Source: a virus
Reading direction: 5' to 3' (one strand)
Length of the DNA stretch: 64,000 nt
Virus record (IMG/VR): IMGVR_UViG_3300036668_000241
Span: 1 to 64,000 of that record
Shown here piece after piece: positions 1,873 to 60,377 of this stretch. Each line of letters begins with the position of its first letter. Position 1 is the first letter of the stretch. Below the pieces are notes generated by a model. It searched no databases, was not told the origin of the DNA, and worked only from the letters and a program-made list of their open reading frames with translations. The translations under genes and the position numbers were made by a program.

Positions 1873-4800
1873 CTACGCCTGGGCCTCGGACCATGACATC
1901 TTAGCGGAACTGAGCGTCTCGTTTCCTGTGAGACGAGCTACCGCAATAGTGATGATGTCAGGACCATCTGGGAATACTGAGTCGCCGCCAAGAATTGAGT
2001 TTGATAGTTCGAACAGATCACTAACGCTAACCGTAGTGGACTGCTCTTCTCCTTGGTTTCCAGAAGCCTTGAAGTTGTAGACCTGAACACCTCCAGAAAC
2101 AGTGTCGTTAGATGTATGTTCAATTACCTGAACCAATGACGGTGCATCTACTCCAACAAAGTTAAGGTTGTTGAGTCGTCCATTGAGAAGCAACTTAACG
2201 TCAATCAGTTGGTTGCTCTGAACTCCAATTTCGTTCAGTCTCAACTGCATTCGGTTAATAATGTCTCGATCTCCAAGCTTTCCGGTTAAACCTTCTGAAA
2301 CAGAAGGGCTGAGACGGAGAGAAAGAAGCGGCTGGTAGTTGGCACCAGAGGTGTTGTTTAAGGTTCCAGCTGGTGACAATCGATATGTTGACTGTGAGTT
2401 TCCAGAGTTAAGGAAGTCAATAACGTTATTGAGTGCCAGTGATCCTACTCCTGGGTTGTAGCCCGTGAAAGAGAAAGTAAAGTTAAAATTACGATACGTA
2501 AATGTCGTAGCTCCAGTACTGGTAATTTGATGTACACCGTTAACTGCTTGATGCAGAACGTTAGTAGTTGGTACGTAGACAAAAATCCATTGATTAGTGC
2601 TGAATCCGTGAGCAGCTGACGTAGTAACGCTTACTGTAAATCCTGACTTTGAAATACTTGTAATTGTTGGAGCGGATACTTCAGAAGAAGCTTCGGTGTT
2701 AAGCAAAGCAATGTTGTTAGAATCAAGAACTCTTGTAAAGTACAATGCTTCGTTTTGTAGATTGTTAAACGCATTCAATCCAACAGTTCTTGTGACAGGG
2801 TTTTGAGTATTAACCTGTGGAAGACCGTTTGTTCCAATTCCCAGGAATTGAACAGCATCTCCAGTTGCAAATCCGTGAGACGGAATATTGATAACGTCGT
2901 ATCGAGCGTCTAAAGCAGTTGATCCAAACGTCTTTGAAGTAGTTCCACCAATATTCAGAGTCTGGCTAGACTTGGTAAACAAGTACGCCTTGTCATCGTC
3001 AAATCTACCGTCCATGATGACCGATGTTCCCCAGTGGAACAATGATGGAATGTATGACGGATTATCGAATGTCGTGACTTCGTATCGAGCCGGAAGGTTA
3101 CCGGATCGGAAGTAAGACTCGAATTGAATGTTGTTATGAGTAAACTCATGTGTGTACTGGACTTCACCGTTTGTAGTCTTAAAACCAAAGCGAATTTTTC
3201 CAGCGCCGTACCATGAATAGTCCATGTAGATCATTTGAATCTTAGAAAGATCAAGATCGTATCCTGTAGGACCAGTCCCATCACATGGGTCAATAGACCA
3301 GTCTTCTTGAGGAACTTTTGTATCAATTGTCTTTGTTGCAATAATTCCAGTCTTAGCGGGAGTAAACGAGTGAGGAGCACCTGTTCCTGTAGAAGAAATA
3401 CTTACAGTTGTTAGCGTGTTTGGAGACGGCTTTAGCCTAAACGTATTACTACTAATAACGTCAACGTAATACGTACGACCGTTTACCATTCCTCCGATAG
3501 GATTACCGTCAATAGAGTTATATATAACTGGAATATTTTGTGTATATCCATGACTAATAATTGTATATATATTTGTAGACGGATTAACTACCGTTGTAGG
3601 ATTAAACTCTTGCTCATTACCTGAAGCGCCCTTGTACTCAGGCTTAATAGTAAGTCTAGAGTCTGAAAGAATGTTAGCAACCTTGTATGTCATACCTCGC
3701 AGGACGATACTGTCTCCGGCCTCCACCTGCGTAGTAAAACTGGTGTTAGTGCCAAACACAAACTCTGATCCCTTAAGAGCAGCTAAAGTTCCAGCAATCT
3801 GCTGTGTTGAAGAGCGACGAACTGCGTAAAGTTTTTGACCATCAAACTCGTAAAACATTCCGTTTTGAAAGTCAAACATACCTGCTCGGAGGGCTCCATT
3901 TTGCCATGCATCAACATGAAGCCTTGGGAACCCATATGCTTTCGACTCATTGATGTTATTGGTAGCAATAACTGTGAGATTGAATGAGTCAATAACAGAA
4001 ACCTGAAAAGTCCCATTAAAGACCTGAGAAATAACTTCACTAGAATCCAAAGCATCATCAATACGACAAGACAATCCATTTATTAAACCGTGGGGTCTAC
4101 GAGTCCGAATCTGAATAACATTTGATGAACCAACTTGGAAGGCTGCTTCAATGTCGATACTAGGCTTAAAGTTAATAGCCGCAGATGTCTGAATACCTTT
4201 ACCTGACTGGTAACGGAAGTACTTACGAGTCTGGCGAATAATAGAGCCATACCATGTTCCAGATCCTGTGGACATTTCTACGCCGCCGTCAAATGGACGA
4301 TGCAGTGAGTATCCCTGAGGACGGACATACACAAAGGTTGGATATGAATAGGCAATGTCTATGTATTCAGATGTGTATGATCTGTCTACAGTAATTTGAC
4401 TATCCGAACCGATAGCAGCAATAGTTCTCACAATTGGCGGTGCTGCAGTTATTTTTCCTACGTAAAGCTGCAGTCCTGACCCTTGATTAGAAAAGTCTAC
4501 AGCGTTTGTTCCAGCGATAGCCTCTGTTCTTAAGTTGTGAAGTGTTACTTGATTACTACTAGATGTCGTAACAGTTCCCGTTACTACAGCATTACCAATA
4601 TTTCCACCAAAAGACACTACTCTAAATTGGGTAGCGCTGACAATAGATCGAACAACGTGTAGTCCGTTGAATACTTCTGGGTTTACTCCAGTAATGTCAG
4701 CTACGGTTATTACGTTTCCAACTTGATAGTTGTGATTTGCAGACGTAGTAAACGTAATTTGATTGCTTGTTCTATCTCTAGCAGTCAGGTTAAGTACTGT

Positions 4801-38830: not shown

Positions 38831-39790
38831 CTAGACAATTGCATTCATAATATTTAAAACATGATTTTTAGGGATAATAGCTAGATGTGAAGACACGTCA
38901 TTTTTTCCAAATGATACAACAAAATTATCATTTAGTTCAACCATTCCCCCTACAAACTCTATTCCAGGACCTACAAATTGAAATGCCTGAGAAGATTCTA
39001 TTAATACGCCAAAACGATCAAATCGTACAAAATAATGTCCGTAGTTTTTTACAACAAAATCCATCATGCCAAAATTATTAGGGCTATACCCTCGAGATTT
39101 GCTAACCCATAGTTTGTGCATAACTGCAATATAGGTCCCATCTTTTTGCTCTATAAGATGAGAGTTCCCTCTAAGTCCAGAAATAAGATTATTGTCAGAG
39201 AAGTTGGTAATAATTTTATCGTTTTTAATAATTGCTGTAGGTCCATAAACAAAATCAAAGTACTCAGTAGCTTTGAGATCAGGAACTAACCAGTTTTTTT
39301 CAGGCTTATCTGGACGAACACCAGGATAAATTTTCACATCAATAATCTTTGTGGCTTTGGGGTCAAGCTTACAAACACAAAAACGTGCAACCGGAGTGTG
39401 CTCTTCCATAACTACTCCTGCAATCATCCAACTATTATCTCTCCAGAAGAGTCGTGGATCTTCAATTCCTCGAGTGTACTTTAGGGGCAATTCGGGCATA
39501 GGAATCTGTCTAAAGTTTTTAAACTTGAAATTCTTATCTACTTCAGCAAAATAAATTCTATTACGAATCTTTCCACCGTTTGTCACATGAAGCTCGCCAT
39601 GAGGAAGGACTACATAGTTAGAAGATCTAAAGGCCATTGCGTATCCTTTTTTAGGAGAATACCCAATAGATGGATTAAAACACGACCACTCTTTATTATT
39701 TTCTTCTGCTAGTCTTTTAAGATTTATTATGTTATCGGTGATAGGGAGAAAAGTTGTAGGGTCTTCTTTTAACATGTTAATCCTTCTCAT
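38831..39790 (-). CDS. Five-bladed beta-propeller glycoside hydrolase/phosphorylase-like protein (GH130-like)
   Basis: FNPSI, GIEDPRLF, EKNW, IEFVGGM, VSFG motifs. Confidence 0.7.
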   Translation of the reverse strand: MRRINMLKEDPTTFLPITDNIINLKRLAEENNKEWSCFNPSIGYSPKKGYAMAFRSSNYVVLPHGELHVTNGGKIRNRIYFAEVDKNFKFKNFRQIPMPELPLKYTRGIEDPRLFWRDNSWMIAGVVMEEHTPVARFCVCKLDPKATKIIDVKIYPGVRPDKPEKNWLVPDLKATEYFDFVYGPTAIIKNDKIITNFSDNNLISGLRGNSHLIEQKDGTYIAVMHKLWVSKSRGYSPNNFGMMDFVVKNYGHYFVRFDRFGVLIESSQAFQFVGPGIEFVGGMVELNDNFVVSFGKNDVSSHLAIIPKNHVLNIMNAIV

Positions 39791-40568
39791 AAATTGCTTG
39801 CGGGTAACGATCTAACACAGGACTTTTCTTTTTAGCAATAGTAAATATGTTGTCTCCTGTATGTGTAATATTAAAACCAGCCGCATTCAGCCTTGCCACA
39901 ACAGAAGGCATAGAATCTTCAAAACAATCTTCTGTCCAGATACTCCCATCAAAACCCGCAGCTTTGACTACTTGCATAAGAGAATGTATAGAGTACTCAT
40001 AGTTATGCCTGTACGGAGACCTATTAGTGTGGTACTGCATATAAAAGTATGGTTCTAGTCCGGACATCATTTTTGTAAGTCCTCGAGAACTAACCACATT
40101 TGGAGTTGTTAATAGCAAGCTTCCTTTAGGCTTTAGTACTCTATTAACTTCAGACATCATAAACATTGGATCAATATCCATGTGCTCAATTACTTCTGAA
40201 CAAATAACCCAATCGTATGTTTTATCTTTTACTGGAATCTCATCAGACTCTAAATCAATAGCAAAAGCCGTAAAACTCCCTGAGTAGCTATGTATTGCTA
40301 TTTCGTAGGTATGCACTGTTTCTTTGTTCATATCAAAATTAGTAACATCTATTGTAACTTTTGGTAAAAGAGCTTGAATTGCAAGAGTAATTACTCCACC
40401 AGTTCCTAATTCCAGGATACGACCTTTAGGTTTTTGATCAAGAAGGACCTGTAAAGTTCTTGCAATTCTCCTTGTGTGAGTTATATGGTAAGTATCTTCG
40501 GGTCTAATAAGTTCTTTCAGAACTTCTGCGACAGCAGGATAGATGTCTGTATACGGTCCGGTAAACAT
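39777..40568 (-). CDS. Class I SAM-dependent methyltransferase (leaderless)
   Basis: ILELGTGG, YDWVICSEVIEH, RVLKPKGSLLLTTPN. Start at 40568 is 6 nt after CATAAT. Confidence 0.85.
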   Translation of the reverse strand: MFTGPYTDIYPAVAEVLKELIRPEDTYHITHTRRIARTLQVLLDQKPKGRILELGTGGVITLAIQALLPKVTIDVTNFDMNKETVHTYEIAIHSYSGSFTAFAIDLESDEIPVKDKTYDWVICSEVIEHMDIDPMFMMSEVNRVLKPKGSLLLTTPNVVSSRGLTKMMSGLEPYFYMQYHTNRSPYRHNYEYSIHSLMQVVKAAGFDGSIWTEDCFEDSMPSVVARLNAAGFNITHTGDNIFTIAKKKSPVLDRYPQAIYEKD

Positions 40569-40640
40569 AACTGCATTATGCCACAGAAAGGAAATTATCG
40601 GGCCCCCTTGCGGACATGTGATATTATTTATGAGATACAT

Positions 40641-40724
40641 GCCAGAGTCCCCTAGTGGCCGATGGGACCGATTTTGTAAGTCGGTACAAAAACAACGCAG
40701 GTTCGAATCCTGCCTCTGGCTCCA
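40641..40724 (+). tRNA. tRNA-Thr(UGU) with a long variable region
   Basis: Acceptor GCCAGAG/CTCTGGC, anticodon arm CCGAT-TTTGTAA-GTCGG, T arm GCAGG-TTCGAAT-CCTGC, encoded CCA. Extended -10 (TGATATTAT) upstream. Confidence 0.85.
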
Positions 40725-40796
40725 AGTACATACAAGGCATTAAACAAGAATGGAAAGAGAAAATACAGAGCCGGGGGCTAAGGGGGCATATAAACC

Positions 40797-41011
40797 AAAA
40801 ACCCCCTTGCGGAGGTTAGTGGGGTGAATATCCGGGTTGCTTTTTACCGGAACGGCCTAGCCAGCAATCCATAGGTTTATGTACCGCTGTAGCCGATCTA
40901 CCGTTTACTCCGCTAAGAGAAAGACCGCTAAGTCCCGATAGTGCGTTTCTCGCCCCTACTGGCACAGAGCTTGATTCCGCCATATTCCACTCGGACCGTC
41001 GCCCTTATGTT
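40797..41011 (-). ncRNA. Candidate ~215-nt structured non-coding RNA
   Basis: Extended -10 TGCTACTAT at 41026-41018, GC-richer body with several helices and no credible ORF, terminator AACCTCC-GCAA-GGGGG-TTTTT. Confidence 0.55.
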
Positions 41012-41115
41012 GCGAGAATAGTAGCACAGATACTTAATAATTAATACACGGAGGTATATTCTTATTGTCCTTACACGAATTAGGTGTAAAATACAAGTAA
41101 TCAAAGGAGTTATTA

Positions 41116-41412
41116 ATGAAGTGTGAAATTTGCTATTGGGCCGAAATGCCTGACAGTGTTCCATCTATGTCTAGGCATATTGGTACATATCATCAAGACA
41201 TTGTTCCAGATCAAGTAATTGTATGGAAGAACTCAGAAATGATTCTTGTTGAAAAGTACAATGGAAAAGATCAACTTATTAATGTCTATGTACAAAAAGT
41301 TGTTCCTTCTCCTAAAGAAAAGCCACTTTTTGATTATGTCCCTCTAGAAACGGAAACTGTTAAAGACTTTGAAGACACTCCCACTGTTATTGATCTAGAC
41401 GAATTACCTTAA
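41116..41412 (+). CDS. C2H2-like zinc finger hypothetical protein
   Basis: CEIC...HIGTYH; RBS AAGGAG. Confidence 0.65.
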   Translation: MKCEICYWAEMPDSVPSMSRHIGTYHQDIVPDQVIVWKNSEMILVEKYNGKDQLINVYVQKVVPSPKEKPLFDYVPLETETVKDFEDTPTVIDLDELP

Positions 41413-41440
41413 GCACTACAAAACAACGGTACGACTCAAA

Positions 41441-41489
41441 GGCTGACGCAGAAGGATTCGAACCTTCAACCATCCGATTAACAGTCTGA
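41441..41489 (-). pseudogene. 3' half of tRNA-Asn(GUU)
   Basis: TCAGA-CTGTTAA-TCGGA, TGGTT, GAAGG-TTCGAAT-CCTTC, TGCGTCA-G-CC. No D arm or 5' acceptor strand upstream. Confidence 0.7.
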
Positions 41490-41494
41490 TTTTC

Positions 41495-41656
41495 TTACAG
41501 TCTTGTTATTTTTCCGCTTGGAATAGCGTTTAAGTTCTCTAGGTTGCATATCCCGCACCACAGGTTGTTTGTTATTTTGGAATATTTCGCGTTCTCTGTT
41601 TCTCTTTGATCTACTAAAACGCCACAAGAATCGCACAGGTCTTCTGTTATTGACAT
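41495..41656 (-). CDS. Small CxxC...CxxC protein (53 aa)
   Basis: MSITEDLCDSCG...LWCGICN..., with AAGGAG upstream; more plausible than track ORF 41478..41693. Confidence 0.6.
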   Translation of the reverse strand: MSITEDLCDSCGVLVDQRETENAKYSKITNNLWCGICNLENLNAIPSGKITRL

Positions 41657-42680: not shown

Positions 42681-42814
42681 TAGATATGATGTCCTTCTAT
42701 TTCGTTGGGAGCCTGCTTTAGTGGAGAGGTAGAGTATTCACATCTCATACAGATGTCTATACCTCTCCACACCTCAATGTCGTGACCTTGAGCGCAAGGA
42801 TTTTCTTTAGGCAT
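42680..42814 (-). CDS. Small hypothetical protein (44 aa)
   Basis: MPKENPCAQGH...CMRC; overlaps the nrdJ stop and the next start. Confidence 0.5.
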   Translation of the reverse strand: MPKENPCAQGHDIEVWRGIDICMRCEYSTSPLKQAPNEIEGHHI

Positions 42815-45800
42815 TTTTCTTTTCTTTAGCAATATCCGTAATCATTCTAACCTCGCAACTATCCGTGCTACAGAAAGCTTCTCCGATAGCATCAGATGCC
42901 ATACCTGCGTAGACTCCCGCAAAGTCAATCTGAAAGAGTTTCATTGTGTAGTCGTTATACTCTTCCTCAGTGATTTGACCGTAGGGCATCTGGGGATAAG
43001 TATCGTTTCCTTGGGGTAGGAATGAAACTGTCTTCATCTGACCGTCATACATATGAAGAACAGATCCGACATGCTTGCTTTCTGTCTCTGCATTAAACGA
43101 AATCGTAACACTAACAGAGTTGTCAGACCAGTATCGCTGTGCTTGTGCTGCTAGTGCCATTTTCTCGAAGATGGTAACTTCTTTGTCAGACCTAGATGAG
43201 TTTGAAGCAATTGGAAAGTAAACAACGGAGGTAGTGTCTGGAGATTCGAACGCTGGTTCGACCCGGTAATTAGCCATCTTGAATAGAGGAAGCATCGGAT
43301 CACTGTTAGCGAAGCGAATCGTGCGCAGAAAATACTTACCACCGGGAGTCCAATGTACACCAGGGGACTCACCAGCAAGAATAGAAACTGTTCCCGAAGG
43401 CTTAACGGTTGTTGTTTTAATCGACTCCCGAATCCCAAGCCATTCCGAGTAGATGGTGTCGTAATATTTGATAGTTCCGTATCCTTCATCCATCCATGTT
43501 CTCAGAGTTGGGAGACCCTGATTATCTGCAAAGTCTGCTACGCCCGACATTGACGCTCCAATACGACGGTTACGCTGCATGATTGCGTTGGTCTCTTCCC
43601 AGTGGGTGGGGAGGAGAGTGACAGTCTTAGCGTAGAGATAAGCAAACTTTAAAGTGCGCTTGTAGTCTTCTAGAGTGTCGTGCCGATTTAGGTAAGTCTC
43701 TACAAGGGTGCACATCTCGAAGGACTCAAGAGATTGTTCGGCGCAATTGTGAACGTACAGCCCATTGGCATCAAAAGCGTGAACTTTCTCTACGGTGACA
43801 TCATAAACCGATGCAGTTCCAAAAGGAGTCAATGACTTGAACGTTGCATAAAATGGCTTAGTGTATACGGCCTTGCTTCGGAGACTGTTGATACGAAACC
43901 ACTTATCACTCTTCTCTAAATCACAAAAGCCGATGCGATCCATATACCTATGAGCACTCTGCGCTGAAATCATTAGTCGCCAAGTTGCCTTGGTAGCATA
44001 AATTTGATAGTCGCCTGTGCCATTATTCTTTGGTAGAGACATTTCGCCTGCGGTTCGGTTCATTGCTACGGTTGATTGAATGCCTAACCGCAAGAGCATA
44101 CGCTGGACCCGCTTAAGTTGCTCTTTATCAGACTGATGTAGACGAATACTTACGCCCTTCTCTAGGTTTCCTTCTACTGAACCGTCAGCATCAAATGCGC
44201 CACGGAGGAACCCGACGTAAAACTCTGAAGACATCTGCTCAAGATCGTCTGTAATCTTCTTAGATCCCGGGCTCATACCTACAGAGTCAGCAAGATGTGC
44301 AATAGATGCACTCTTCAATCTATACTCATTCCGTCCCGGAACTTCCATAAATCCCTGCCAGTCAGACCTGTGTGAAAGTGTAGATGCTGCTGTAAAGACT
44401 GCTTCTTTGACCTCTGGGTGGTCGCCCCAGACACTTAGCACAGCACTTTTATTGTTGAAAGTTCCGTCTCCCCAGAGTTGACCAATAAGATATCCCTCTT
44501 GTTCGGAGCCAGCACCTCCCCACACACTTAATGTTCCATGATCGTGCAGGACAATCTTATCTTCGTGAGTAAGATTTCCCGCTTCTACCCACCCACGTTG
44601 GGTCATCACTTGGTGGTTGTCTGTGATCCTAAGTGTGTGTCCCTCTACCGTTGTCAAATCAAAGACCTGACGATCATGGTCTGTAAGGAAGAATCCATCT
44701 GACTCGGTTCGATACTTCTCTCCATCTACAATCGCTACGAACGGGGTGCCAACCAAGTCGCGCACCTGCCTCGGACCATCTTCAGTCAATACCCACGAAT
44801 CATCAGTGATGCAAGGGTTGTAGCCTACGACGCGATGATCTTTGTTATTTGGTGCATCTGCAAGACGACCGTACGCACGCGACACATCCATCCACAAAAC
44901 TCCGGGCTCACCGTTGCGAACTACTCCATCAAGAATTGGAGATAAGTCTTCTCCAACTTTTACATCTACTGAGTTGTTAGACATCCAGCCAAACTCTTGA
45001 CGATCTGCTGCAGGTCCAGGAGTGAACTTACCTTTGTCATCATAGGTTCCATAATTCTTGAGGTTCAAAAACTCTTCGTCATCAATAGAACCAATGAGAA
45101 GTTCGGCTGAGCGACGCACGTTACCTGAGACAACGCAGACGCCAATCATATTTCCAATATTGGCAATGTCTGTTCGAGTTACCATTTCGCCACCTCTACC
45201 ACTAAACAACTTAGTAATATGGTTGTGTAGTTTTTCTAATGGCTGATGTCCCGCTGCGGTCCCACCAAAAATCTTAATTGGTACGCCTGCAGGACGGATT
45301 AATGAGTAGTCAAACTTCACTGATTTTTGATCTGACTTAAGGTAAGAGTTAATTTGCATGGTCAAAGATTCAACCCAACCCTCTCGGGTATCAGGAATCT
45401 CATATACAACTGACTCTTCTAATGGATTGTAGATATTGAAGTTTTTGTCAGCACCCTTATTGTCGAAACCAACGCCAACGCCAAGCATGGAAGCTTCCAT
45501 AAGATATGCAAATGGTTTTGCTGGATTGTTCTTGGTCATTTCCATGCTACTAACAAAGGCACAGTTTTGAAGGGCTGCGCTATTGCGCTGCTCATTTACA
45601 AGACGAGTTCCCATAACCCAAAGACCTCTGCCAGGTGGAGTCCACTTCAGATTAAAGAGACGGTCAAAACCTTCTTTGGCTGATGATTGAGCCTTCTGGT
45701 CATTCCACGGTAAACGATTAGTTTTGCAGTGATCTTTTTGAAGAGAGTACATGCCATTGATGACACGCTCACATACATCTGTCCACGTCTCTTTAGTGCC

Positions 45801-45947
45801 GTCTTCTTTGATCCTTGAGTAAGTTCTTAAGAATGTAATTTCCCCAACAGAGTTGCCTCCTGCGTCTCTATAACCAAACGGTGCTTTCTTATCTGCATAA
45901 GTAGCAACAAAGTCTTCAGAAAGCCGAAAAGAAAATAAAAGTGACAC
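42807..45947 (-). CDS. nrdJ: Class II (adenosylcobalamin) ribonucleotide reductase, monomeric type, intein-containing
   Basis: PPGRGLW, NCAF, GNVRRSA, NP|CAEQ, TVKPSGT, C-terminal CSTDSC. Confidence 0.92.
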   Translation of the reverse strand: MSLLFSFRLSEDFVATYADKKAPFGYRDAGGNSVGEITFLRTYSRIKEDGTKETWTDVCERVINGMYSLQKDHCKTNRLPWNDQKAQSSAKEGFDRLFNLKWTPPGRGLWVMGTRLVNEQRNSAALQNCAFVSSMEMTKNNPAKPFAYLMEASMLGVGVGFDNKGADKNFNIYNPLEESVVYEIPDTREGWVESLTMQINSYLKSDQKSVKFDYSLIRPAGVPIKIFGGTAAGHQPLEKLHNHITKLFSGRGGEMVTRTDIANIGNMIGVCVVSGNVRRSAELLIGSIDDEEFLNLKNYGTYDDKGKFTPGPAADRQEFGWMSNNSVDVKVGEDLSPILDGVVRNGEPGVLWMDVSRAYGRLADAPNNKDHRVVGYNPCITDDSWVLTEDGPRQVRDLVGTPFVAIVDGEKYRTESDGFFLTDHDRQVFDLTTVEGHTLRITDNHQVMTQRGWVEAGNLTHEDKIVLHDHGTLSVWGGAGSEQEGYLIGQLWGDGTFNNKSAVLSVWGDHPEVKEAVFTAASTLSHRSDWQGFMEVPGRNEYRLKSASIAHLADSVGMSPGSKKITDDLEQMSSEFYVGFLRGAFDADGSVEGNLEKGVSIRLHQSDKEQLKRVQRMLLRLGIQSTVAMNRTAGEMSLPKNNGTGDYQIYATKATWRLMISAQSAHRYMDRIGFCDLEKSDKWFRINSLRSKAVYTKPFYATFKSLTPFGTASVYDVTVEKVHAFDANGLYVHNCAEQSLESFEMCTLVETYLNRHDTLEDYKRTLKFAYLYAKTVTLLPTHWEETNAIMQRNRRIGASMSGVADFADNQGLPTLRTWMDEGYGTIKYYDTIYSEWLGIRESIKTTTVKPSGTVSILAGESPGVHWTPGGKYFLRTIRFANSDPMLPLFKMANYRVEPAFESPDTTSVVYFPIASNSSRSDKEVTIFEKMALAAQAQRYWSDNSVSVTISFNAETESKHVGSVLHMYDGQMKTVSFLPQGNDTYPQMPYGQITEEEYNDYTMKLFQIDFAGVYAGMASDAIGEAFCSTDSCEVRMITDIAKEKKNA
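43746..44813 (-). mobile_element. Intein (356 aa) with LAGLIDADG homing endonuclease
   Basis: Begins CITDDSWV after GYNP, ends VYDVTV...LYVHN before Cys. Internal YLIGQLWGDG and FLRGAFDADG. Confidence 0.92.
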
Positions 45948-59639: not shown

Positions 59640-60377
59640 ATGACAACAGGACTTAAGTTGAGCAAAGATCGCAAGGTTGCCAACATCGTAAATAAAGCAG
59701 GCACGCAAGCCGCTATGCACAACGCATTCGGGTTACCGGCAGGCGATCAATTCTCGTGCGGAGGCATGACAGATGTATGCGGCTCGATTTGCTACGCAAA
59801 CAAACTAGAGAAGTTATTTCCTTCTGTTCGCGTATTGCTGATGCACAACTGGAACCTGCTAAAAGATGCGGATTTCGACACAATGGTCAACCTACTTGAT
59901 GAAGTTATTTGCAAGTTTGAATCAGAGTGCGAGAAACGTTCCGCCAAAAAGATATTCAGAATTCACTGGGACGGCGACTTCTTTAGCATTGACTACGCTC
60001 GAGCATGGATCGAAGTTATCCGTTGTCATCCTGATATACAATTCTGGTCATACACTCGGCAGGCGTTCGCTGCAGTTGAATTACATAAGTCTGGACTTAT
60101 CAACGTAGCAAACTATTTCAGCGCGGATAGTGCAAACTTGCCTATAGCAACAATGCTACGAAAGACCTACGGCATACGCCTAGCAATGCTTGCTGATAAT
60201 TTCCAAGACGGTCAAGCCGTTATGCGTGAGATCACCGGCAAGGTTGGTGCAAAGTGCCCAGAGAATAATAAAGCGCAGGCGTTCGGATTAATCACAACCG
60301 AAGGATCGGCATGTAGTAGGTGCCGCCTATGTGTGTTCGGCAAGGCTGACATAGTATTCAGCGCGACTAAAAAATAG
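59640..60377 (+). CDS. GP88-family protein (radical-SAM-like Cys motif)
   Basis: FGLPAG..SCGGMTDVCGSICYA, FRIHWDGDFFS, FWSYTR, CPE, CSRCRLC. Confidence 0.75.
   Translation: MTTGLKLSKDRKVANIVNKAGTQAAMHNAFGLPAGDQFSCGGMTDVCGSICYANKLEKLFPSVRVLLMHNWNLLKDADFDTMVNLLDEVICKFESECEKRSAKKIFRIHWDGDFFSIDYARAWIEVIRCHPDIQFWSYTRQAFAAVELHKSGLINVANYFSADSANLPIATMLRKTYGIRLAMLADNFQDGQAVMREITGKVGAKCPENNKAQAFGLITTEGSACSRCRLCVFGKADIVFSATKK

What the first reader, a model, noticed from the sequence alone, without database searches (positions are those of the whole stretch)
40797..41026. Unassigned ~215-nt stand-alone structured RNA candidate between two tRNA loci
Seen on the minus strand: extended -10 TGCTACTAT (41026-41018), a GC-richer body with no RBS-led ORF, and a GNRA-capped terminator CCTCC-GCAA-GGGGG-TTTTT (40815-40797). 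Possible pairings: GUGGAAUAU (40990-40982) with AUAUUCAC (40831-40824); GACGGUC (41000-40994) with GGCCGUU (40857-40851); hairpin UCCGG/CCGGA, whose loop AGCAA can pair with upstream UUGCU (pseudoknot); GGGAC/GUCUU; GCG-AGAAA-CGC. CUUAGCGG occurs twice. I could not match it to tmRNA, RNase P, SRP, 6S or a tRNA from memory. Inference: a new phage ncRNA class; large phage ncRNAs often lie near tRNA genes.
Basis: partly seen in the sequence, partly recalled or inferred. Interest (0 to 1): 0.72.

Follow-up and report, generated by a model that had tools for sequence, protein, structure and literature searches.

The report
Divergent manA RNA in actinophage
The stretch is a real, self-contained gene for a folded RNA of about 215 bases, but it is a very divergent member of the already described manA RNA family rather than a new class, and it sits among the phage's tRNA genes.

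Summary
On the minus strand, 40797-41026 carries an extended -10 box, a GC-rich non-coding body (40820-41010) and an intrinsic terminator.

The interpretation 'new ncRNA class' does not hold. The body matches Rfam manA RNA (RF01745) over the full model at 39.1 bits, E 2.7e-8. That is below the gathering score of 55.2, and whole-window scans filter the match out.

I found eight further distinct relatives of the same short form, which lacks one hairpin. Five score above Rfam's cut-off (56.0-72.9 bits) and three just below (49.1-54.6), so they link the window copy to manA.
- A model built only from the window copy finds a canonical cyanophage manA.
- A model built from the nine short forms finds 5 of 5 canonical copies.
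- The shared fold is 92.7-94.2% paired, with 34 of 51 and 43 of 48 pairs changed on both sides.

The phage is a freshwater actinophage: its large terminase is 76% identical to that of Actinomycetia phage DSL-LC01.

Six of the nine short-form copies lie within 200 nt of same-strand tRNA genes. In Rhodococcus phage Francesca the RNA exactly fills the gap between tRNA-Met and tRNA-Lys. That favours a stand-alone stable RNA over a 5'-UTR riboswitch. Its function remains unknown.

The parts
41018..41026 (-). Extended -10 promoter-like box TGcTACTAT. It would place the start near the conserved 5' ACA at 41010-41008.
   Evidence: Sequence read. Relatives have TTGACA/TTGACT with a 17-18 nt spacer and a -10 box at the same distance from the conserved ACA. 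The consensus scan did not list it, because the -35 is weak. The transcription start is inferred, not shown.
40820..41010 (-). Body of the RNA: a short-form manA-family fold of 191 nt.
   Evidence: Rfam RF01745 at 40821-41006, 39.1 bits, E 2.7e-8, model positions 1-192. My canonical model R1 with filters off gives the top hit of the window, 23.5 bits against 16.1 for the next. The short-form model R3 scores it 164.7 bits.
40993..41004 (-). P1 hairpin GGGC-GACG-GUCC.
   Evidence: Helix 1 is 91.7-94.6% paired, with 3-4 of its 4 pairs changed on both sides.
40983..40987 (-). 5' strand (GAAUA) of the closing helix, which Rfam marks 'pseudoknot?'. It pairs with 40826-40830.
   Evidence: alignment. 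Helix 2 is 97.8-98.6% paired. The canonical pair is GGGAG/CUCCC; the window has GAAUA/UAUUC and relatives GAGUA/UACUC.
40826..40830 (-). 3' strand (UAUUC) of the closing helix.
   Evidence: As for 40983-40987.
40972..40982 (-). Conserved junction UGGCGGAAUCA. The family signature is UG-C-GAAU-AA.
   Evidence: One search match line. UGGCNGAAU is present in all nine short-form members.
40906..40934 (-). Hairpins H3 (GAC-UUAGCG-GUC) and H4 (UUCUCU-UAGC-GGAGUA). Their loops hold the twice-occurring CUUAGCGG.
   Evidence: Helices 6 and 7 are 97-100% paired with compensatory changes. A UAGCG-type loop recurs in 6 of 9 members at H3 and 5 of 9 at H4.
40853..40895 (-). Long hairpin H6/H7 with the conserved internal GGCUAGG.
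   Evidence: Helix 8 is 87.8-91.7% paired, with 12-15 pairs changed on both sides.
40831..40851 (-). 3' hairpin H8, UCCGG-UAAAAAGCAAC-CCGGA, with an 11-nt loop.
   Evidence: Helix 9 is 100% paired. Seven of the 11 loop positions equal the manA consensus UAuacAguAAU.
40797..40817 (-). Intrinsic terminator: stem, GCAA loop, then a U run.
   Evidence: Terminator scan. Relatives L200, L191, L193 and L214 carry different GC hairpins at the same place, followed by U-rich tails that are clean U runs only in the window and L200. Termination itself is not shown.
40779..40787 (-). 5' remnant of a same-strand tRNA-Thr(UGU) that directly follows the RNA in close relatives.
   Evidence: L196 is 99% identical to the window and has an intact tRNA-Thr here.
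40600..40614 (-). 3' remnant of that tRNA-Thr. It holds the 12-mer TCCGCAAGGGGG that also occurs in the terminator.

Best explanation
The region is an independent gene for a stable, highly folded RNA of about 215 nt that belongs to the manA RNA family (Rfam RF01745). It is a short form lacking the hairpin with the ACCA loop, and the window copy is the most divergent of the nine short-form copies found.

How it is made:
- In this freshwater actinophage, transcription would start at an extended -10 promoter (41026-41018), near the conserved ACA at 41010. It would end at the hairpin plus U run (40817-40797).
- In relatives the same RNA sits inside tRNA gene arrays. There it must be freed by the enzymes that cut out the neighbouring tRNAs.

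How it most likely works: I think it acts in trans as a folded particle, not as a 5'-UTR switch of a downstream mRNA. By analogy with canonical manA RNAs, which self-assemble in vitro, it may act as a homo-oligomer built through its conserved loops.

Status of each step:
- Shown: the fold, its conservation, the homology to manA, the non-coding nature and the tRNA context.
- Inferred: the transcript ends, the processing and the trans action.
- Speculative: oligomer formation and the cellular role.
For: Homology to manA
- RF01745 aligns over the full model at 39.1 bits, E 2.7e-8.
- Relatives score 72.9, 66.0, 61.8, 58.5 and 56.0 bits, all at or above the gathering score of 55.2. Three more score 54.6, 52.0 and 49.1.
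- Model R2, built from the window copy alone, finds the canonical cyanophage copy in L125 at 24.7 bits, E 9e-5. The other 5 of the 6 canonical loci searched were not reported under default filters.
- Model R3, built from the nine short forms only, finds 5 of 5 canonical copies at 41-52 bits.

Fold
- Nine distinct short forms: 92.7% of cells paired and 34 of 51 pairs changed on both sides. With partners slid, 32-49% of cells pair and 6-14 pairs change.
- Fourteen sequences including canonical ones: 94.2% paired and 43 of 48 pairs changed.

Non-coding
- The 55-aa frame is interrupted in 7 of 8 relatives.

Own transcription unit
- The -10 box and terminator are read.
- Promoter-like TTGACA/TTGACT with a 17-18 nt spacer and a -10 box stands before the conserved ACA in L194, L200 and L191. 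L193 has an extended -10 (TGTTAGGAT) with only a poor -35.
- GC hairpins follow the RNA in L200, L191, L193 and L214.

tRNA arrays
- In Rhodococcus phage Francesca the RNA (locus 2980-3165) fills the gap between tRNA-Met (ends 2978) and tRNA-Lys (starts 3166).
- L213 has tRNA-Asp 19 nt downstream. L200 has tRNA-Glu 41 nt upstream. The G051 contig has tRNA-Trp about 170 nt upstream. L218 has tRNA-Met 124 nt downstream. L196, L194 and L205 have tRNA-Thr 33 nt downstream.

The cassette is better conserved than its flanks
- Against L194 the RNA region is 97.6% identical over 250 nt, while the methyltransferase region is 67.7% identical.

Self-assembly of canonical manA
- Passages of bioRxiv 10.64898/2026.07.01.735769 report 60-mer cages and decamers held by kissing loops.
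Against: - The window copy fails Rfam's curated cut-off (39.1 against 55.2 bits). It is not reported in whole-window scans or by the genome search with RF01745.
- My narrow canonical model gives it only 23.5 bits, against 16.1 for the next-best place in the window.
- Folding energy gives no support.
- No transcript evidence was obtained.
- The hairpin whose loop (ACCA) is complementary to the canonical GGUGGUG loop is missing. The published assembly interfaces therefore may not exist in this form. The conserved loops show no clear covariation with a candidate partner sequence (my reading).
- In L214 and L212 a protein-coding gene with a ribosome-binding site starts 20-50 nt after the RNA. That is the layout of a cis-regulator.
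- In L196, L194 and L205 the 'terminator' is followed within 10 nt by a tRNA gene that has no room for a promoter of its own. Read-through must therefore occur, or the hairpin is not a terminator.
- All pair counts were made on alignments fitted to the model structure, which leans them towards that structure.
Confidence: 0.6

Rival explanations
1. It is a cis-acting manA riboswitch, as Rfam types the family. The folded domain would sense a metabolite and set read-through of the terminator at 40817-40797. That would control what lies downstream: originally tRNA-Thr, then the methyltransferase and the GH130-like gene.
For: - The family was proposed as a riboswitch candidate found in 5' UTRs of mannose/fructose, nucleotide-synthesis and other genes (Weinberg 2010, PMC2864571, passages read).
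- A terminator directly follows the domain here and in L200, L191, L193 and L214.
- In L214 and L212 a gene with a ribosome-binding site follows within about 50 nt.
- In L196, L194 and L205 a tRNA gene without room for its own promoter follows the hairpin, so regulated read-through is conceivable.
- The second gene downstream in the window (38831-39790) is 52% identical to the DSL-LC01 protein deposited as 'beta-mannosyltransferase'. It has a weak match to beta-1,2-mannobiose phosphorylase 7FIP, E 0.0099.
- Sugar-nucleotide and polysaccharide genes lie beside the G051 copy.
Against: - In Francesca the RNA is flanked by tRNAs with 1 and 0 nt to spare and no expression platform.
- Downstream partners are heterogeneous: tRNA-Thr, tRNA-Lys, tRNA-Asp, tRNA-Met, a protein whose N-terminus reads like a metallophosphoesterase (my reading of the translation, no family search) and proteins with no Pfam match or not searched.
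- The phages that share the methyltransferase/GH130-like module lack the RNA. No match was found in the other 50 of 52 records, nor in the 12.7-kb syntenic stretch of DSL-LC01 with filters off.
- I saw no alternative pairing between the terminator and the domain.
- The mannose link rests on a depositor's label and one weak match. Pfam and NCBIfam find nothing for that protein.
Confidence: 0.22
2. It is a tRNA-array accessory RNA whose role is tied to tRNA biology. It could be a processing scaffold for, or decoy of, tRNA-maturing enzymes or host tRNA-cleaving defence nucleases. It would be co-transcribed and co-processed with the phage tRNAs.
For: - Six of nine short-form copies lie within 200 nt of same-strand tRNA genes, against 3 of 60 canonical cyanophage loci examined.
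- The copy in Francesca is an exact fill between two tRNAs.
- In L213 and L218 the RNA is preceded, 3 nt away, by a sequence that looks like a T arm and ends in CCA. This is my reading, and ARAGORN did not call either one.
Against: - L212 and L214 have no tRNA in 12.9 and 8.3 kb. Most canonical copies have none nearby.
- Nothing in the fold resembles a tRNA: there is no tRNA-model match on the RNA itself.
- Adjacency may only mean that stable-RNA genes cluster together.
Confidence: 0.12
3. The resemblance to manA is chance or convergence, and the region is an unrelated structured RNA or no RNA at all.
For: - The score is below the gathering threshold.
- The MFE is not unusual.
- The canonical-only model gives 23.5 bits, with a 16.1-bit false place elsewhere in the window.
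Against: - A graded series of relatives scoring 49-73 bits on RF01745 score 132-182 bits on the same short-form model that gives the window copy 164.7.
- Reciprocal hits go both ways.
- Compensatory changes occur in every helix that could vary.
- The two-motif pattern that the window matches found only 17 other places in 2.9 million viral contigs, all reading like chance matches.
Confidence: 0.04

Closest known systems
manA RNA motif, Rfam RF01745 (Weinberg et al. 2010, PMC2864571): canonical form in T4-like marine cyanophages and Photobacterium
   Same: - Full-length alignment to the model.
- Shared parts: a P1 hairpin with a GACG loop, a long-range closing helix, the UG-C-GAAU-AA junction, a multi-stem core and a 3' hairpin with an 11-nt UA.A.AG.AA. 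loop.
- The shared fold is 94.2% paired over 14 sequences.
- Many canonical copies also have a -10-like box just upstream and a T run just downstream.
   Different: - The window copy scores 39.1 bits against 160.9-226.6 bits for canonical copies on my model R1. It is below Rfam's cut-off.
- The hairpin with the ACCA loop is absent.
- The H3 loop is UUAGCG, not GGUGGUG.
- The closing helix is GAAUA/UAUUC, not GGGAG/CUCCC.
- The host range is actinophage and freshwater, not marine cyanophage.
- It has its own strong terminator and lies among tRNA genes.
Short-form manA copies found here: Rhodococcus phage Francesca PP978770 (76480-76665), viral contigs L191, L212, L213 and L214, metagenome contigs L193 and L200, and MAG contig L218
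   Same: - The same architecture without the ACCA-loop hairpin.
- UGGCNGAAU and GGUAAAAANCAANCC in all nine members.
- 131.6-181.5 bits on model R3, against 164.7 for the window copy.
- tRNA neighbours in most copies.
   Different: - The window copy is the most divergent from Rfam's model (39.1 against 49-73 bits).
- It has a 1-nt longer GAAUCAAG junction and two mismatches in the inner P2 helix.
- Francesca's copy has no promoter or terminator of its own.
manA motif on the Bifidobacterium breve megaplasmid pMP7017 (PMC10832533, one passage read)
   Same: - A 178-bp manA motif on a mobile element of an actinobacterium that also carries tRNA genes.
[quoted passage not shown]
- The length is close to that of the short form (176-191 nt).
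   Different: I could not fetch the sequence. The accession I recalled was not in the collection, and blastn of L193 against the plasmid collection found nothing. Whether it is the same short form is untested.
Stable small RNAs encoded in the tRNA gene cluster of phage T4 (species 1 and 2, rnaD/rnaC).
   Same: Phage-encoded stable RNAs of unknown function that lie among tRNA genes and are matured with them.
   Different: No sequence or structure comparison was made here. No homology is claimed.

Membership tests
manA RNA (Rfam RF01745) | Covariance-model score at or above the curated gathering score of 55.2 bits | tested here: not met
   The window copy scores 39.1 bits. Five relatives of the same short form meet it, at 56.0-72.9 bits. 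Three do not, at 49.1-54.6 bits.
manA RNA (Rfam RF01745) | Statistically significant, full-length alignment to the family model | tested here: met
   E 2.7e-8 over model positions 1-192 in a 1.2-kb search against 4227 families. It is the top hit of the whole window with my canonical model and filters off, E 1.4e-5.
manA RNA (Rfam RF01745) | Reciprocal detection: models built without canonical sequences find canonical manA | tested here: met
   R2 (window copy only) finds 1 of 6 canonical loci under default filters, 24.7 bits. R3 (nine short forms) finds 5 of 5 with filters off, 41-52 bits.
manA RNA (Rfam RF01745) | P1 hairpin with a GAYG-type loop at the 5' end | tested here: met
   GGGC-GACG-GUCC. 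The helix covaries.
manA RNA (Rfam RF01745) | Long-range closing helix (Rfam 'pseudoknot?') joining the region after P1 to the 3' end | tested here: met
   GAAUA/UAUUC. The helix is 97.8-98.6% paired, with 3-4 of 5 pairs changed on both sides.
manA RNA (Rfam RF01745) | Conserved junction UGaCUGAAUAAaCUU | tested here: met
   The window has UGGCGGAAUCAAGCU. UG, C, GAAU, AA and CU are kept, with one inserted base.
manA RNA (Rfam RF01745) | Three hairpins in the central junction, including the one with the ACCA loop (model positions about 100-115) | tested here: not met
   Two hairpins are present. The ACCA-loop hairpin is deleted in the window copy and in the two relatives whose Rfam alignments I saw. 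None of the nine short forms has extra bases at that place, while the canonical copies do.
manA RNA (Rfam RF01745) | GGUGGUG loop on the first junction hairpin | tested here: not met
   The loop is UUAGCG in the window and YUAGCG or UAACG in relatives.
manA RNA (Rfam RF01745) | 3' hairpin with an 11-nt loop UAuacAguAAU | tested here: met
   The loop is UAAAAAGCAAC, the same length with 7 of 11 positions identical. The stem is 100% paired.
manA RNA (Rfam RF01745) | Location in the 5' UTR of a protein-coding gene (Rfam type Cis-reg) | tested here: inconclusive
   In the window a terminator, a tRNA remnant and an opposite-strand tRNA lie between the RNA and the next gene. L212 and L214 look like 5' UTRs. 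Francesca and L213 are inside tRNA arrays.
manA RNA (Rfam RF01745) | Self-assembly into pentamer-based oligomers (bioRxiv 10.64898/2026.07.01.735769) | not testable with these tools
   No tool here folds RNA complexes. The paper's passages were read.
tRNA, tmRNA, RNase P RNA, SRP RNA, 6S RNA | Match to the corresponding Rfam model on the candidate | tested here: not met
   No such match overlaps 40797-41026 up to E 10. ARAGORN finds no tRNA or tmRNA there.

The most novel reading that the evidence does not exclude
manA RNAs as a whole may be mis-filed as cis-regulators. On this reading they are stand-alone phage RNA genes, made from their own promoters or cut out of tRNA precursors by RNase P and 3'-end nucleases, and they act as self-assembling RNA particles in the infected cell. 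The short actinophage form lacks one of the canonical kissing-loop hairpins and carries two UAGCG loops. It would then build a different oligomer. It would also give the family's unknown function a first genetically tractable test system, in a cultured actinophage.
Probability: 0.25. Interest if true: 0.8.

Novelty: new member of a known kind. Interest (0 to 1): 0.42.

Why it matters
manA RNA has had no known function since 2010, and Rfam types it as cis-regulatory. A 2026 preprint reports that canonical copies form 60-subunit cages in vitro, which makes natural variants and their genomic settings newly relevant.

This window adds four things:
1. The family reaches freshwater and soil actinophages as a short form. 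Standard annotation misses part of that form: four of the nine copies fall below Rfam's cut-off.
2. The short form usually lies in tRNA arrays. In one cultured phage it leaves no room for a 5'-UTR role, which argues for a stand-alone RNA.
3. Rhodococcus phage Francesca offers a cultured system for asking what the RNA does.
4. The RNA cassette is kept nearly identical between phages whose neighbouring genes are about 68% identical. That points to strong constraint or recent exchange.

For genome annotation, the practical lesson is that a small-region, permissive covariance scan recovers family members that whole-genome scans filter out.

Tried and rejected
Searches that found nothing
- Whole-window Rfam scans, at gathering and at E <= 0.1, did not list the match. 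Only the 1.2-kb scan did. I attribute this to the tool's stricter filters on larger inputs.
- The genome search with RF01745 found nothing in the window's own record or in 50 related records. Its control rang nowhere, so this says nothing.
- blastn ('distant') of the candidate against the phage collection found no match.
- nhmmer and a fuzzy motif search over the 51 methyltransferase loci found nothing homologous.
- R2 on those loci, and on the DSL-LC01 syntenic region with filters off, found nothing.
- R2 and R3 through the genome search on the related records found only G000 and G051.
- The search for related loci with the 98-aa ORF (41116-41412) found no relative.

Pattern scans
- GAATNAANCT...GGTANNNAGNAANCC in viral contigs gave 17 places, none resembling the RNA and most reading like coding sequence.
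- GGCGGAAT...AAACGC...GGTAAAAAGCAA gave only L191.
- Of the 17 metagenome loci, 5 were true and 12 gave no model match.
- Of the 49 genome-contig loci, only L218 matched model R2. Read by eye, many of the other 48 are the same one or two conserved protein-coding genes recurring across related genomes.

Other dead ends and rejected readings
- R1 with default filters over 458 kb did not pick up the window copy.
- Second R1 hit at 59890-60051 (+), 16.1 bits: it lies inside an ORF, has many non-pairs and is not found by R3. I rejected it as spurious.
- Folding energy is not informative.
- Expression: no RNA holder was listed.
- Loop-loop complementarity (UAGC loops with the internal GCUAG) was inspected by eye. 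There was no consistent covariation, so I keep it as speculation only.
- My first definition of the inner P2 helix was wrong (63% paired). I redefined it from the relatives, and it was 89.1% paired after re-alignment.
- Supplementary files of Weinberg 2010 and of the 2026 preprint (genomic contexts, variant alignments) were not seen. They may already list short forms or tRNA-adjacent copies.
- Print searches for manA covered 'manA RNA', 'wcaG RNA', 'manA motif', 'RF01745', 'manA riboswitch' and 'manA RNA motif'. Among the passages I read, none describes an actinophage copy. I did not search the word actinophage itself.
Full report
**What is in the sequence**

On the minus strand the window reads TG-c-TACTAT at 41026-41018. 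A GC-rich stretch follows, and then CCTCC-GCAA-GGGGG-TTTTT at 40815-40797. The terminator scan lists that hairpin with a 7-pair stem. The body (40820-41010) is 52.9% GC, against 44.3% for the window and 35-37% for the neighbouring genes.

A 55-aa frame starts at AUGGC (40983). In 7 of 8 homologues the same frame hits stop codons within 17 codons, and the eighth has no AUGGC there. The region is therefore non-coding.

Folding energy does not mark the region. The z-score is -0.85 on the minus strand and -0.11 on the plus strand.

**Which family it belongs to**

Rfam scans of the whole window listed only two tRNAs. A permissive scan of 40300-41500 gave RF01745, the manA RNA, at 40821-41006 on the minus strand. 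The score was 39.1 bits against a gathering score of 55.2, E 2.7e-8, covering model positions 1-192 with one hairpin (about 100-115) deleted.

The family was described by Weinberg et al. 2010 as a riboswitch candidate of marine cyanophages and gamma-proteobacteria (PMC2864571, passages). A 2026 preprint reports that canonical members assemble in vitro into decamers and a 60-subunit cage through kissing loops (bioRxiv 10.64898/2026.07.01.735769, passages).

**Testing the link with my own models**

I fetched canonical copies from IMG/VR with a two-motif pattern. The scan gave at least 120 places, 112 of them non-redundant true copies and one false one. I aligned 28 of them and checked the Rfam-like fold: 96.9% of cells paired and 26 pairs changed on both sides. 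From this alignment I built model R1.

With filters off, R1's best hit in the 64-kb window is the candidate at 23.5 bits, E 1.4e-5. The next place scores 16.1 bits, lies inside an ORF and has many non-pairs. Canonical copies score 160.9-226.6 bits on R1, so the candidate is very remote from the cyanophage group.

Model R2 was built from the candidate alone with the manA fold mapped onto it (51 pairs). It found the canonical copy in L125 over its full length at 24.7 bits, E 9e-5. It found nothing in the 51 actinophage loci, and it missed the other five canonical loci under default filters.

**Finding relatives**

A pattern was built from positions shared by the candidate and manA, with the canonical bases at two positions excluded. 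It found one viral contig, L191, and 17 metagenome loci. R2 matched five of those 17:
- three copies identical to the window over the 191 nt (L194, L196, L205);
- L200 at 116 bits;
- L193 at 78 bits.

blastn with L193 then hit Rhodococcus phage Francesca (75 bits on R2). A refined pattern added L212, L213 and L214 from viral contigs and L218 from a MAG contig. Of the other 48 genome-contig hits none matched R2, and by eye many are conserved protein-coding genes recurring across related genomes.

That gives nine distinct sequences. On Rfam's own model they form a graded series:

| Copy | RF01745 score (bits) |
|---|---|
| Francesca (L211) | 72.9 |
| L212 | 66.0 |
| L213 | 61.8 |
| L218 | 58.5 |
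| L214 | 56.0 |
| L193 | 54.6 |
| G051 (L191) | 52.0 |
| L200 | 49.1 |
| window | 39.1 |

Five copies thus pass the curated cut-off of 55.2 bits. The window copy is the most divergent end of the same short form.

**The fold**

On the nine sequences aligned to R2, 92.7% of cells pair and 34 of 51 pairs show changes on both sides. With partners slid by 1-3 columns, 32-49% of cells pair and 6-14 pairs change.

My first version of the inner P2 helix was wrong (63% paired). The relatives show a 5-pair helix directly after GAAUAA. Model R3 was built with that correction and without any canonical sequence. It finds 5 of 5 canonical cyanophage copies at 41-52 bits.

The joint 14-sequence alignment is 94.2% paired, with 43 of 48 pairs changed on both sides. 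Slid controls give 36-52% paired and 16-26 pairs. These alignments are fitted to the model, which favours the structure, but the gap to the controls is large.

All nine short forms lack the hairpin with the ACCA loop. They carry UAGCG-type loops where canonical copies have GGUGGUG, and they share UGGCNGAAU and GGUAAAAANCAANCC.

- the closing helix, the UCCGG/CCGGA hairpin and GAC/GUC are right;
- GACGGUC/GGCCGUU, GCG-AGAAA-CGC and the AGCAA/UUGCU pseudoknot are not supported.

**The phage and the neighbourhood**

The window is part of a 72.3-kb IMG/VR virus record. Its large terminase is 76% identical to that of Actinomycetia phage DSL-LC01 from lake water. The next-best matches are Microbacterium and Gordonia phages.

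Genes around the RNA:
- a SAM methyltransferase (39777-40640; homologues align from about residue 25);
- a 319-aa protein that is 52% identical to DSL-LC01's deposited 'beta-mannosyltransferase', with only a weak match to a GH130 mannobiose phosphorylase, E 0.0099;
- a 98-aa ORF on the opposite strand;
- a GNAT acetyltransferase;
- an intein-bearing class II ribonucleotide reductase.

DSL-LC01 and 50 contigs that share the methyltransferase lack the RNA.

**tRNA context**

- In Francesca the RNA (locus 2980-3165) exactly fills the unannotated gap between tRNA-Met (ends 2978) and tRNA-Lys (starts 3166). This lies inside a long tRNA array.
- L213 has three tRNAs upstream, and tRNA-Asp 19 nt downstream followed by tRNA-Thr.
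- L200 has tRNA-Gly and tRNA-Glu 41 nt upstream.
- G051 has tRNA-Trp about 170 nt upstream.
- L218 has tRNA-Met 124 nt downstream.
- L194, L196 and L205 have tRNA-Thr 33 nt downstream.
- L212 and L214 have no tRNA in the DNA held. L193 is too short to tell.

That is 6 of 9 short-form copies, against 3 of 60 canonical loci examined.

Where the RNA is not hemmed in by tRNAs it has a promoter-like element at a fixed distance from a conserved 5' ACA, and a GC hairpin with a U-rich tail after the conserved UCACCC.

The cassette is 97.6% identical over 250 nt between the window and L194, whose methyltransferase region is only 67.7% identical.

**Mechanism**

The best-supported reading is a stand-alone stable RNA. 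It would be made from its own promoter and terminator here, and cut out of tRNA precursors in relatives. It would act in trans.

The Francesca layout leaves no room for an expression platform or a regulated mRNA, and the downstream partners are heterogeneous. By analogy with canonical manA it may self-assemble, but the short form lacks one of the canonical loop hairpins and I found no covariation that names a partner for its conserved loops. Assembly is therefore speculation.

The riboswitch rival keeps weight for three reasons:
- a terminator follows the domain in several copies;
- L212 and L214 look like 5' UTRs;
- in L196-type genomes a tRNA gene sits 10 nt after the hairpin, so read-through must happen.

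No expression data could be obtained.

**Comparison with what is known, and verdict**

This is a divergent member of a known family, not a new class. Papers in the library place manA in cyanophages and Photobacterium. One paper reports a 178-bp copy on a Bifidobacterium megaplasmid and remarks that manA can lie next to tRNAs (PMC10832533, one passage). I could not fetch that copy to compare it.

What this window adds:
- an actinophage and freshwater short form that standard thresholds partly miss;
- its strong tie to tRNA arrays;
- a cultured phage in which the family's unknown function could be tested.

Confidence that the region is a real RNA of the manA family is about 0.9. Confidence in the full statement, including stand-alone trans action, is 0.6.

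Noticed in passing
window 40600-40787 (minus strand), with the insert at 40615-40778: The same-strand tRNA-Thr(UGU) that follows the RNA in the 99%-identical contig L196, and in L194 and L205, is broken in the window. Its first 9 nt (40779-40787) and last 15 nt (40600-40614) remain. The middle 51 nt are replaced by 164 nt that carry a different tRNA-Thr(UGU) on the opposite strand (40641-40724). That tRNA is 84 nt long with an enlarged variable region and an encoded CCA. No other copy of the insert exists in the loci held.
   Followed up: partly
window 40603-40614 and 40802-40813 (minus strand): The 12-mer TCCGCAAGGGGG occurs exactly twice in the window (0.10 expected by chance). One copy is in the RNA's terminator hairpin. 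The other is the T-arm/acceptor 3' end of the broken tRNA-Thr. L194 and L196 show the same pair. The terminator may derive from, or exchange with, the tRNA's 3' end.
   Followed up: partly
window about 41441-41489 (minus strand): Only the 3' part of a tRNA-Asn(GUU) is present (Rfam tRNA model 29.9 bits, cut at its 5' side). L196 has the whole tRNA plus about 630 nt that the window lacks. The fragment overlaps the end of a small CxxC...CxxC ORF (41495-41656) that has a good ribosome-binding site. Both tRNAs that flank the RNA on its own strand are thus damaged in this genome.
   Followed up: partly
loci L069-L188 (canonical cyanophage manA copies): Of 112 non-redundant canonical copies, 105 have TAnnnT and 48 have TGnTAnnnT within the upstream 40 nt. 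Sixty-seven have a run of at least four T within 25 nt after the 3' hairpin. Many canonical copies therefore also look like short self-contained units. The genomes are AT-rich, so this is weak evidence.
   Followed up: partly
L213 about 2760-2796 and L218 about 2920-2957: Directly upstream of the RNA (3 nt away) both contigs have a sequence that looks like a T arm (GGUGCAA(A/C)UCC) followed by an acceptor-like strand ending in CCA. ARAGORN did not call either one. They may be unusual tRNAs or tRNA-like elements.
   Followed up: no
window 42807-45947 (minus strand): The class II (B12-dependent) ribonucleotide reductase carries an intein with a LAGLIDADG endonuclease domain (Pfam RNR_Alpha, RNR-II_ins_dom, Intein_splicing, LAGLIDADG_3).
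   Followed up: no
window 38831-39790 (minus strand): This 319-aa protein has no Pfam, PHROG or NCBIfam match. It is 52% identical to the DSL-LC01 protein deposited as beta-mannosyltransferase and weakly matches GH130 beta-1,2-mannobiose phosphorylase 7FIP (E 0.0099). It follows a SAM methyltransferase in both phages.
   Followed up: partly
window 59890-60051 (plus strand): This is the second-best hit of my canonical manA model (16.1 bits, rough E 0.002). It lies inside a 245-aa ORF, has many non-pairs and is not found by the short-form model. I judge it spurious, and it shows that the short calibration makes such E-values optimistic.
   Followed up: yes
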